The notes under the pieces were generated by a model that saw only the letters and a program-made list of their open reading frames with translations, had not been told where the DNA came from and ran no database searches. Shown here in pieces: positions 2,180 through 2,401 of a stretch of DNA of 4,616 nucleotides. Source of the DNA: a virus (Duplodnaviria; Heunggongvirae; Uroviricota; Caudoviricetes); IMG/VR virus record IMGVR_UViG_2648501392_000005, positions 1 through 4,616 of that record; one strand, given 5' to 3'. The translations under genes and the position numbers were made by a program. Position 1 is the first letter of the stretch; every line of letters begins with the position of its first letter.

Positions 2180-2401
2180 ATGGCAGATATCATTGATTCA
2201 GCATCAGAAATTGAAGAATTACAGCGCAATACAGCAATAAAAATGCGTCGCCTGAACTACCAGACTGTATCCGCAACTCATTGTTGTGAGTGTGGCGATC
2301 CGATAGATGAACGAAGATGCCTGGCAGTTCAGGGTTGTCGGACTTGTGCAAGTTGCCAGGAGGATCTGGAGCTTATCAGTAAACAGAGAGGTTCGAAGTG
2401 A
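2180..2401 (+). CDS. orf73: TraR/DksA-family C4 zinc-finger protein (lambda orf73-like)
   Basis: 73-aa ORF carrying the motif C-C-E-C-x8-C-x5-C-R-T-C-A-S-C, i.e. CxxC ... CxxC(xxC), typical of the TraR/DksA C4-type zinc finger. Size and position between orf61 and ea22 fit lambda orf73. Its stop overlaps the next gene's GTG start. Confidence 0.8.
   Translation: MADIIDSASEIEELQRNTAIKMRRLNYQTVSATHCCECGDPIDERRCLAVQGCRTCASCQEDLELISKQRGSK

What the first reader, a model, noticed from the sequence alone, without database searches (positions are those of the whole stretch)
2180..2401. Phage-encoded TraR/DksA-type zinc finger, a likely RNA polymerase secondary-channel modulator
The CxxC…CxxC(xxC) arrangement in a 73-aa protein is the TraR/DksA C4-type zinc-finger pattern. 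TraR-family proteins bind the RNA polymerase secondary channel and mimic the DksA/ppGpp effect on rRNA and amino-acid promoters. A phage copy in the early-left operon is a plausible host-transcription reprogramming factor. This variant has seven cysteines rather than four, which is notable.
Basis: partly seen in the sequence, partly recalled or inferred. Interest (0 to 1): 0.45.

Follow-up and report, generated by a model that had tools for sequence, protein, structure and literature searches.

The report
Lambda Orf73-type TraR homologue, minority allele
This 73-residue gene is the prophage counterpart of phage lambda orf73, a TraR-like zinc-finger protein already shown by experiment to bind host RNA polymerase and shut down ribosomal RNA promoters, so the finding is correct but ordinary apart from one uncommon Arg-to-Cys change.

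Summary
The ORF is real: 2180-2401 on the + strand, ATG to TGA, 73 aa with seven cysteines. It passes the Pfam dksA/traR zinc-finger threshold (31.2 bits, cut-off 24.9). It is 93% identical (5 substitutions) to phage lambda Orf73 and sits in the same place in the pL operon: bet, exo, orf60a, orf63, orf61-like, orf73, ea22.

Lambda Orf73 has already been characterised (Gopalkrishnan et al. 2022, mBio, PMC9239242). It competes with DksA for RNA polymerase, inhibits rrnB P1 with an IC50 of about 50 nM without ppGpp, needs D3 and D6, slows host growth and raises phage yield 3- to 4-fold. One caveat: lambda Orf73 barely activates amino-acid promoters.

The "seven cysteines" are less notable than claimed.
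- Four (C35, C38, C56, C59) form the canonical CxxC-x17-CxxC.
- The seventh, C47, is a CGC-to-TGC change at the position equivalent to TraR R49, which contacts beta'Si3.

This position is Arg in 85 of 88 family representatives. The Cys allele is a circulating minority allele, seen on about 130 public contigs. TraR R49A only mildly weakens inhibition, so I expect a small effect.

The parts
2180..2401 (+). orf73 coding sequence (73 codons plus TGA): TraR-family zinc-finger protein, orthologue of lambda Orf73
   Evidence: ORF. Pfam PF01258 above its gathering score. 93.2% identical to lambda 30395-30613 complement. Exact protein annotated in NCBI as 'TraR/DksA family transcriptional regulator'.
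2186..2203 (+). Codons 3-8, the DxxDxA motif (D3, D6, A8) at the start of the N-terminal helix. In TraR and lambda Orf73 this part reaches the RNAP active-site region.
   Evidence: D3, D6 and A8 are conserved in 86, 85 and 87 of 88 family representatives and in TraR. D3N and D6N in lambda Orf73 strongly reduce inhibition.
2282..2356 (+). Codons 35-59, the zinc-finger globular domain. Canonical ligands are C35, C38, C56 and C59 (CxxC-x17-CxxC). Extra cysteines are C36 and C53, both shared with lambda Orf73.
   Evidence: Alignments to TraR. Pfam match covers residues 33-64. AF2 pLDDT is about 90 over residues 31-70. The two extra cysteines of lambda Orf73 are discussed in PMC9239242.
2318..2320 (+). 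Codon 47, TGC (Cys), where lambda and most relatives have CGC (Arg). This position is equivalent to TraR R49, a beta'Si3 contact.
   Evidence: DNA alignment. Arg in 85 of 88 representatives. TGC occurs in 1 IMG/VR contig and 1 genuine metagenome contig. The exact protein is on 130 contigs. The role of R49 is described in PMC6970531.
2311..2317 (+). Codons 44-46 (this range ends 2 nt into codon 46): E44 and R46, equivalent to TraR E46 (Si3 interface) and R48 (rim-helix binding). Both are retained.
   Evidence: Alignments. R46 is invariant in alignment A2. Roles are described.
2164..2169 (+). CAGGGA, a Shine-Dalgarno-like sequence 10 nt upstream of the ATG (inference only)
   Evidence: Read directly from the sequence. 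The stretch is identical in lambda.
2398..2401 (+). GTGA overlap: the orf73 stop (TGA, 2399-2401) overlaps the GTG start of the 256-aa Ead/Ea22-like gene (2398-3168), which suggests translational coupling
   Evidence: ORF table. Ead_Ea22 Pfam hit. The same 4-nt overlap is annotated in JLK-2012 and in E. coli prophages.
2102..2128 (+). Terminator-like hairpin (8-bp stem, 3-nt loop) followed by T6, in the 98-nt gap upstream of orf73. It is context for pL/N-dependent expression.
   Evidence: MFE -10.2 kcal/mol, z=-1.9, weak statistically. The sequence is identical in lambda.
35..2081 (+). Upstream pL-operon genes: bet (35-769), exo (766-1446), orf60a/DUF1317 (1437-1625), orf63/DUF1382 (1598-1789), a 27-aa ORF (1786-1869) and an orf61-like gene (1866-2081)
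   Evidence: Pfam hits, annotation of lambda and prophages, translation.

Best explanation
The ORF encodes an orthologue of phage lambda Orf73, a TraR-family protein of a lambdoid (Stx-phage-like) E. coli prophage. It is transcribed early after induction as part of the N-antiterminated pL transcript, between the orf61-like gene and ea22, and its stop codon overlaps the ea22 start. The inferred mechanism follows lambda Orf73 and TraR. The zinc-finger globular domain (C35/C38/C56/C59; R46 on the rim helices) docks at the entrance of the RNA polymerase secondary channel. The N-terminal helix inserts into the channel so that D3, D6 and A8 approach the active-site region. The C-terminal helix contacts betaSi1. 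Without binding DNA and without ppGpp, this shifts RNAP conformation so that promoters forming short-lived open complexes (rrn P1, rpsT P2 and other translation-machinery promoters) are inhibited. Host ribosome synthesis falls, host growth slows and phage yield rises. The biochemical steps are shown for lambda Orf73, which is 93% identical, and are inferred for this allele. The allele carries R47C at the TraR-R49-equivalent beta'Si3 contact. From the TraR R49A data I expect normal RNAP binding, at most a roughly 2-fold weaker inhibition, and still less activation, which lambda Orf73 already nearly lacks.
For: ORF and sequence. Pfam PF01258 scores 31.2 bits against a gathering score of 24.9. 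PHROG 54 matches full length at E=4.7e-24. The protein is 93.2% identical to the lambda orf73 locus with five substitutions, H27Y, A29T, I30V, R47C and V49A. Gene order matches lambda and annotated prophages. A family profile hits TraR chains 5w1s_M and 6n57_M full length at E=8e-9. The AF2 model (mean pLDDT 79.7; helix 7-27, zinc knuckle, helix 57-70) has TraR bound to RNAP as its top two PDB hits with probability 1.00, followed by YbiI and DksA. D3, D6, A8, E44 and R46 are conserved. Experiments on lambda Orf73 (PMC9239242) showed: rrnB P1 IC50 about 50 nM without ppGpp; competition with DksA for RNAP; loss of function in D3N and D6N; rRNA precursor at 29% and rpsT mRNA at 45% after pL induction; 3- to 4-fold higher phage yield; complementation of a dksA-null strain. 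For TraR R49A, the IC50 was about 85 nM against about 50 nM, binding was proficient and activation fell at least 2-fold (PMC6970531).
Against: No biochemical test exists for this exact allele. Position 47 is Arg in 85 of 88 representatives, and Cys is a less conservative change than the tested Ala. A seventh cysteine next to a zinc site could disturb folding or metal binding. The authors of PMC9239242 already suspected that the two extra cysteines of lambda Orf73 affect folding of the globular domain. The NCBIfam TraR subfamily model TIGR02419 scores 48.8 bits, below its 59.7 cut-off, although lambda Orf73 itself also falls short at 54.7. The physiological role is disputed: another group reported pro-lysogenic phenotypes for orf73 deletions (PMC8614690). 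An IS element has disrupted a downstream gene in this window, so the prophage may be decaying.
Confidence: 0.9

Rival explanations
1. Same family, but this allele is functionally attenuated or dead. R47C removes a nearly invariant arginine and adds a thiol beside the zinc site, so the protein misfolds, mis-coordinates zinc or binds RNAP poorly. On this reading it is a decaying gene in a degenerating prophage.
For: Arg is present in 85 of 88 representatives and in all 119 sampled IMG/VR copies. The TIGR02419 score drops from 54.7 for lambda to 48.8. An IS3-family insertion truncates a gene 2.1 kb downstream. The extra cysteines of lambda Orf73 are already suspected of perturbing the globular domain.
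Against: The exact protein occurs intact on about 130 contigs and in 155 index blocks. It is found in prophages at two different integration sites (mlrA and ybhC) whose flanking DNA differs by about 1%. That argues for persistence rather than a one-off lesion. TraR R49A keeps RNAP binding and nearly full inhibition. The AF2 model is confident (pLDDT about 90) across the zinc domain.
Confidence: 0.12
2. The RNAP-binding mechanism is correct, but the main biological role is in the lysis-lysogeny decision or in blocking host replication initiation (the 'bin' phenotype), not in raising lytic yield.
For: The review PMC8614690 summarises work in which orf73 deletion in lambda and Phi24B lowered host survival after infection and lowered lysogenisation efficiency, i.e. 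a pro-lysogenic role. Earlier work implicated orf73, ea22, ea8.5 and orf55 in inhibiting host replication. High Orf73 concentrations inhibit dnaA P2 in vitro with an IC50 of about 420 nM.
Against: Point mutants (D3A/D6A) and an in-frame deletion, neither of which is polar, lowered phage yield 3- to 4-fold after induction. dnaA mRNA was reduced weakly if at all when Orf73 was expressed from a single-copy prophage.
Confidence: 0.2
3. It behaves like DksA rather than TraR: a secondary-channel factor that needs ppGpp as a cofactor.
For: Annotators label it 'dksA' or 'DksA-like zinc-finger protein'.
Against: At 73 aa it has a single N-terminal helix instead of DksA's coiled coil, so it lacks half of the DksA architecture. 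Its best structural and sequence matches are to TraR, not DksA. Lambda Orf73 acts without ppGpp.
Confidence: 0.02
4. It is a generic small zinc ribbon unrelated to RNA polymerase, for example a DNA-binding or protein-protein adaptor.
For: The PDB sequence hit with the lowest E-value is E. coli YbiI, a protein of unknown function. The fold-search E-values are modest (5e-3) for such a small protein.
Against: The match to TraR is colinear over the full length and includes the N-terminal DxxDxA motif, which a bare zinc ribbon would not have. It is 93% identical to a protein with demonstrated RNAP binding.
Confidence: 0.01

Closest known systems
Bacteriophage lambda Orf73 (lambda 30395-30613 complement; called Orf2310 in ribosome-profiling work)
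   Same: 73 aa with 68 identical. Same DxxDxA motif, same six cysteines (35, 36, 38, 53, 56, 59) and the same E44 and R46. Same position between the orf61-like gene and ea22 in the pL operon, the same GTGA overlap with ea22, and an identical upstream hairpin and RBS region.
   Different: Five substitutions: H27Y, A29T, I30V, R47C and V49A. R47C removes the TraR-R49-equivalent arginine and adds a seventh cysteine. The downstream Ea22-like gene is 256 aa here against 182 aa in lambda.
F-plasmid TraR (PDB 5W1S, 6N57 and related entries)
   Same: Same length (73 aa), the same three-part architecture (N-terminal helix, C4 zinc domain, C-terminal helix), DxxDxA at residues 3-8, CxxC-x17-CxxC, and the E46 and R48 equivalents.
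   Different: Only about 31% identity. Three extra cysteines. R49 and K50 are replaced by C47 and L48. It is encoded by a phage early operon rather than a conjugative tra operon. The lambda orthologue does not activate the promoters that TraR activates.
E. coli DksA
   Same: Shares the dksA/traR C4 zinc-finger domain (PF01258), binds the same RNAP secondary-channel site (lambda Orf73 competes with DksA) and has the same class of target promoters.
   Different: DksA is 151 aa with a two-helix coiled coil and needs ppGpp for full activity. This protein is half that size, and its orthologue acts alone at lower concentrations.
Orf73 of Stx phages (Phi24B, 933W, BP-4795, JLK-2012)
   Same: Same gene in the same conserved orf60a-orf63-orf61-orf73-ea22 block. 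The JLK-2012 'dksA' product is 100% identical, including C47.
   Different: Most Stx-phage copies carry R47. These include the otherwise identical allele MADII...DERRRLAVQG..., found in 16 of the sampled IMG/VR loci.

Membership tests
Pfam PF01258 zf-dskA_traR (prokaryotic DksA/TraR C4-type zinc finger) | Profile score at or above the curated gathering threshold | tested here: met
   31.2 bits against 24.9, E=2.2e-7, residues 33-64 matched to profile positions 4-35 of 36.
Pfam PF01258 zf-dskA_traR | Four cysteines arranged as CxxC-x17-CxxC | tested here: met
   C35, C38, C56 and C59 align to TraR C37, C40, C58 and C61.
TraR subfamily (short, ppGpp-independent secondary-channel regulators) | About 70-75 aa with a single N-terminal helix (no coiled coil), a zinc globular domain and a C-terminal helix | tested here: met
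   73 aa. The AF2 model has helix 7-27, a zinc knuckle and helix 57-70. The top PDB fold hits are TraR 6n57_M and 5w1s_M with probability 1.00 and TM about 0.55.
TraR subfamily | N-terminal DxxDxA motif (TraR D3, D6, A8) | tested here: met
   M-A-D3-I-I-D6-S-A8. The requirement was shown for lambda Orf73 D3N and D6N.
TraR subfamily | Arginine equivalent to TraR R48 (binds the rim helices) | tested here: met
   R46 is invariant in alignment A2.
TraR subfamily | Arginine equivalent to TraR R49 (beta'Si3 contact, contributes to activation) | tested here: not met
   C47, codon TGC at 2318-2320. Lambda and 85 of 88 representatives have Arg. In TraR, R49A affects activation but only mildly affects inhibition and does not impair binding.
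TraR subfamily | NCBIfam TIGR02419 (C4_traR_proteo) score at or above the curated cut-off | tested here: not met
   48.8 bits against 59.7. The experimentally validated lambda Orf73 also fails at 54.7, whereas F TraR passes at 80.5. The cut-off therefore excludes this whole Orf73 clade.
TraR subfamily | Binds the RNAP secondary channel, competes with DksA and inhibits rrnB P1 without ppGpp | not testable with these tools
   Shown for lambda Orf73, which is 93% identical. Not tested for this allele.
Lambda Orf73 orthologue group (exo-xis region) | High full-length identity to lambda Orf73 | tested here: met
   93.2% over 73 of 73 residues by tblastn, E=3e-38; five substitutions.
Lambda Orf73 orthologue group (exo-xis region) | Position in the conserved block orf60a-orf63-orf61-orf73-ea22 downstream of exo in the pL operon | tested here: met
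   Pfam DUF1317, DUF1382 and Ead_Ea22 flank the ORF in that order. The order is the same in lambda and prophages. The block is described in PMC8614690.

The most novel reading that the evidence does not exclude
The R47C allele could be a natural separation-of-function or redox-sensitive variant. On this reading the seventh cysteine at the beta'Si3 interface abolishes any residual activation, or it competes for or exchanges zinc ligands with C36 and C53. Either effect would make RNAP inhibition by this prophage protein responsive to oxidative stress, which is the very signal that induces Stx prophages. The persistence of the allele on about 130 contigs in two prophage backbones would then reflect selection rather than drift.
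Probability: 0.07. Interest if true: 0.35.

Novelty: already known. Interest (0 to 1): 0.1.

Why it matters
Little is new here. Orf73-type proteins are one route by which lambdoid and Shiga-toxin prophages reprogram host transcription without triggering the stringent response, and the gene is present in about 61% of complete E. coli genomes. Correct annotation is therefore useful: RefSeq's lambda record still lacks the gene. The mechanism and phenotype are published for the lambda orthologue. The only open point specific to this window is whether the minority R47C allele, found in an O55:H7/STEC-associated prophage module, changes potency or zinc chemistry. That is a narrow question.

Tried and rejected
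- **NCBIfam equivalogs.** The models for TraR (PRK13715), YbiI-like (PRK11019) and DksA all scored far below their cut-offs. I rejected these as membership evidence. The TIGR02419 shortfall applies equally to lambda Orf73.
- **Own promoter for orf73.** The sigma-70 scan found 4 sites against 4.8 expected from shuffles, and none lies upstream of 2180 on the + strand. There is no evidence for a separate promoter.
- **Terminator call at 2102-2120.** The fold z-score is only -1.9 and the scan total was 8 against 5.4 expected. I kept it as a side note only.
- **Metagenome scan for the TGC allele.** Ten of the 11 matches were chance 19-mers in unrelated GC-rich contigs, and only L126 is genuine. The scan is not useful for estimating prevalence.
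- **First structure job.** I re-ran it without that row.
- **One literature search** failed on a phrase that was too long.
- **Overlapping and antisense ORFs** within 2180-2401 (2190-2351 on the - strand, 2307-2411 on the + strand, 2329-2490 on the - strand) are not annotated as genes in any of the records examined; I did not search them against any family library and dismissed them on that basis.
- **Sequencing error as the cause of C47.** I rejected this because the allele recurs in independent assemblies with different flanks.

Full report
**Observation**

The window is a stretch of a lambdoid prophage read in the direction of leftward (pL) transcription. The ORF table and Pfam scan give the following genes:
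- bet/RecT, 35-769
- exo/YqaJ, 766-1446
- orf60a/DUF1317, 1437-1625
- orf63/DUF1382, 1598-1789
- an orf61-like 71-aa gene, 1866-2081
- the ORF of the finding, 2180-2401
- an Ead/Ea22-like 256-aa gene, 2398-3168
- a 63-aa ORF, 3170-3361
- a DUF551 gene, 3364-3918
- an anti-repressor-like ORF, 3997-4524

The finding's ORF is exactly as described: ATG at 2180, TGA at 2399-2401, 73 aa. An in-frame TAA at 2171-2173 excludes any longer reading. It has seven cysteines, at residues 35, 36, 38, 47, 53, 56 and 59.

**Family**

- Pfam PF01258 (dksA/traR C4 zinc finger) is matched at 31.2 bits against a gathering score of 24.9.
- PHROG 54 'DksA-like zinc-finger protein' is matched over the full length at E=4.7e-24.
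- A single-sequence search of PDB sequences finds F-plasmid TraR colinearly from residue 1 to 64.
- A profile of 34 family members improves that hit to E=8e-9 over residues 1-69.
- An AlphaFold2 model built on 33 homologues has mean pLDDT 79.7, rising to about 90 across residues 31-70. It shows helix 7-27, a zinc knuckle and helix 57-70.
- The two best PDB matches to the model are TraR bound to RNA polymerase (6n57_M and 5w1s_M, probability 1.00, TM about 0.55). YbiI and DksA follow.

In every alignment C35, C38, C56 and C59 correspond to TraR C37, C40, C58 and C61, giving CxxC-x17-CxxC. D3, D6 and A8 correspond to the TraR DxxDxA motif.

The NCBIfam TraR-subfamily model TIGR02419 scores 48.8 bits, below its cut-off of 59.7. 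Lambda Orf73 also falls short at 54.7, while F TraR passes at 80.5. That cut-off simply does not reach this clade.

**Orthology to lambda Orf73**

A tblastn search of the phage collection finds 274 records. Phage lambda matches at 30395-30613 (complement) with 93.2% identity over all 73 residues. RefSeq does not annotate a gene there, but the translation is an intact 73-aa ORF.

The window protein differs from it at five positions: H27Y, A29T, I30V, R47C and V49A. Gene order is the same, and so is the GTGA stop/start overlap with ea22. The 98-nt upstream spacer is identical to lambda's apart from one base (window 2147, A; lambda G), hairpin and RBS region included. The review PMC8614690 describes orf60a-orf63-orf61-orf73-ea22 as a conserved block of lambda and Stx phages.

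**What is already known**

Gopalkrishnan et al. 2022 (mBio, PMC9239242) purified lambda Orf73 and reported the following:
- It inhibits rrnB P1 with an IC50 of about 50 nM, the same as TraR, without ppGpp. It also inhibits rpsT P2.
- It competes with DksA for RNAP.
- D3N and D6N variants lose activity.
- After pL induction it lowers rRNA precursor to 29% and rpsT mRNA to 45%.
- It slows host growth and raises phage yield 3- to 4-fold.
- It complements a dksA-null strain.
- It activates thrABC, argI and rpoH P3 weakly if at all.

That paper explicitly discusses the six cysteines of lambda Orf73. The two extra ones lie at TraR positions 38 and 55, and the authors suggest they may explain the lack of activation.

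Its 'amino-acid promoter' half is weaker than stated.

**The cysteines**

Among 88 full-length cluster representatives, the cysteine count is 5 in 56 of them, 6 in 23 and 7 in 2. C53 is present in 79 of 88 and C36 in 36 of 88. Extra cysteines are thus a trait of the Orf73 clade, not of this gene.

Only C47 is unusual. It is a single CGC-to-TGC transition at a position that is Arg in 85 of 88 representatives. All 119 IMG/VR matches to a pattern that allowed either base carry CGC.

The TGC allele is nevertheless real and circulating:
- It is identical in phage JLK-2012 and its host E. coli O55:H7 DEC5E, which is the only 100% match among 5426 complete genomes.
- It occurs in one IMG/VR contig and one genuine metagenome contig.
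- The exact protein is recorded on 130 contigs, against at least 1000 for a common R47 allele.
- It is found in prophages at two integration sites, mlrA and ybhC.
- The flanking DNA of these copies differs from the window by about 1%.

Position 47 aligns with TraR R49, which together with E46 and K50 forms the interface with beta'Si3. TraR R49A binds RNAP normally, inhibits rrnB P1 with an IC50 of about 85 nM against about 50 nM, and loses at least half of its activation (PMC6970531). E44 and R46, the equivalents of E46 and R48, are retained.

My inference is that the allele remains an effective inhibitor of rRNA and r-protein promoters. Any loss would fall on activation, which the lambda protein already nearly lacks. 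A folding or zinc-binding defect from the added thiol cannot be excluded without experiment.

**Mechanism, with the status of each step**

- an intact, conserved ORF
- family and fold
- orthology and synteny
- conservation of the DxxDxA motif, the C4 ligands, and the E46- and R48-equivalent residues

Shown for the orthologue in the literature:
- RNAP secondary-channel binding
- ppGpp-independent inhibition of translation-machinery promoters
- slowed host growth and a gain in phage yield
- early expression from pL

Inferred for this allele:
- the same activity, perhaps slightly weaker

Disputed in the literature:
- whether the net phenotype is pro-lytic or pro-lysogenic

**Verdict**

The feature is already known, both in annotation ('TraR/DksA family transcriptional regulator') and through experiments on lambda Orf73. 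Interest is low. The only residual question is the functional consequence of the minority R47C substitution.

Noticed in passing
window 4522-4616 (and ORF 3997-4524): The last 95 bases are the terminal sequence of an IS3-family insertion element. They are 99% identical to the IS end that interrupts ea22 in E. coli C325 (L124 5564-5658). The related prophage in strain Z1323HEC0393 matches the window 100% up to base 4521 and then continues into a 221-aa gene. The anti-repressor-like ORF (PHROG 1726) is therefore truncated by the IS, which supplies its TGA stop.
   Followed up: yes
window 2102-2128: A GC-rich 8-bp hairpin followed by TTTTTT lies between the orf61-like gene and orf73, and its sequence is identical in phage lambda. 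It looks like an intrinsic terminator inside the pL operon, which would make orf73 expression depend on N antitermination. The fold z-score is only -1.9, and I did not match it to a named lambda terminator.
   Followed up: partly
window 1786-1869: A 27-codon ORF encodes a hydrophobic peptide, MTTTECILLAAGFIFCVLMLADMGLVQ. It is linked by ATGA overlaps to the end of orf63 (stop at 1787-1789) and to the start of the orf61-like gene (ATG at 1866). It may be a small membrane peptide and is not annotated in the records examined.
   Followed up: no
window 2336-2338 (codon 53 of orf73): A fifth cysteine, C53 (Val at TraR position 55), is conserved in 79 of 88 Orf73-clade representatives, forming C-x2-C-x2-C with the two C-terminal zinc ligands. 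Conservation this strong suggests a role, perhaps as an alternative ligand or in stability. The published work has only speculated about it.
   Followed up: partly
lambda NC_001416 30395-30613 (L002 2896-3114, - strand): The RefSeq lambda record used here has no CDS for orf73, although the gene is experimentally characterised. The tblastn hit falls in an unannotated gap next to ea22.
   Followed up: yes
window 3170-3361: A 63-aa ORF immediately after ea22 matches PHROG 1222 (unknown function, E=1e-40) and has no Pfam family. It is conserved next to the 256-aa Ea22-like gene in all the prophages that carry the C47 allele.
   Followed up: no
window 1-4616 against complete E. coli genomes: The window is mosaic. 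No record in the collections matches it end to end. JLK-2012 matches 1-3384 at 98.8%, and the prophage at the ybhC (lambda att) site of strain Z1323HEC0393 matches 1-4521 at 99.0% but carries R47. The orf73-ea22 module therefore appears to have moved between backbones by recombination.
   Followed up: partly
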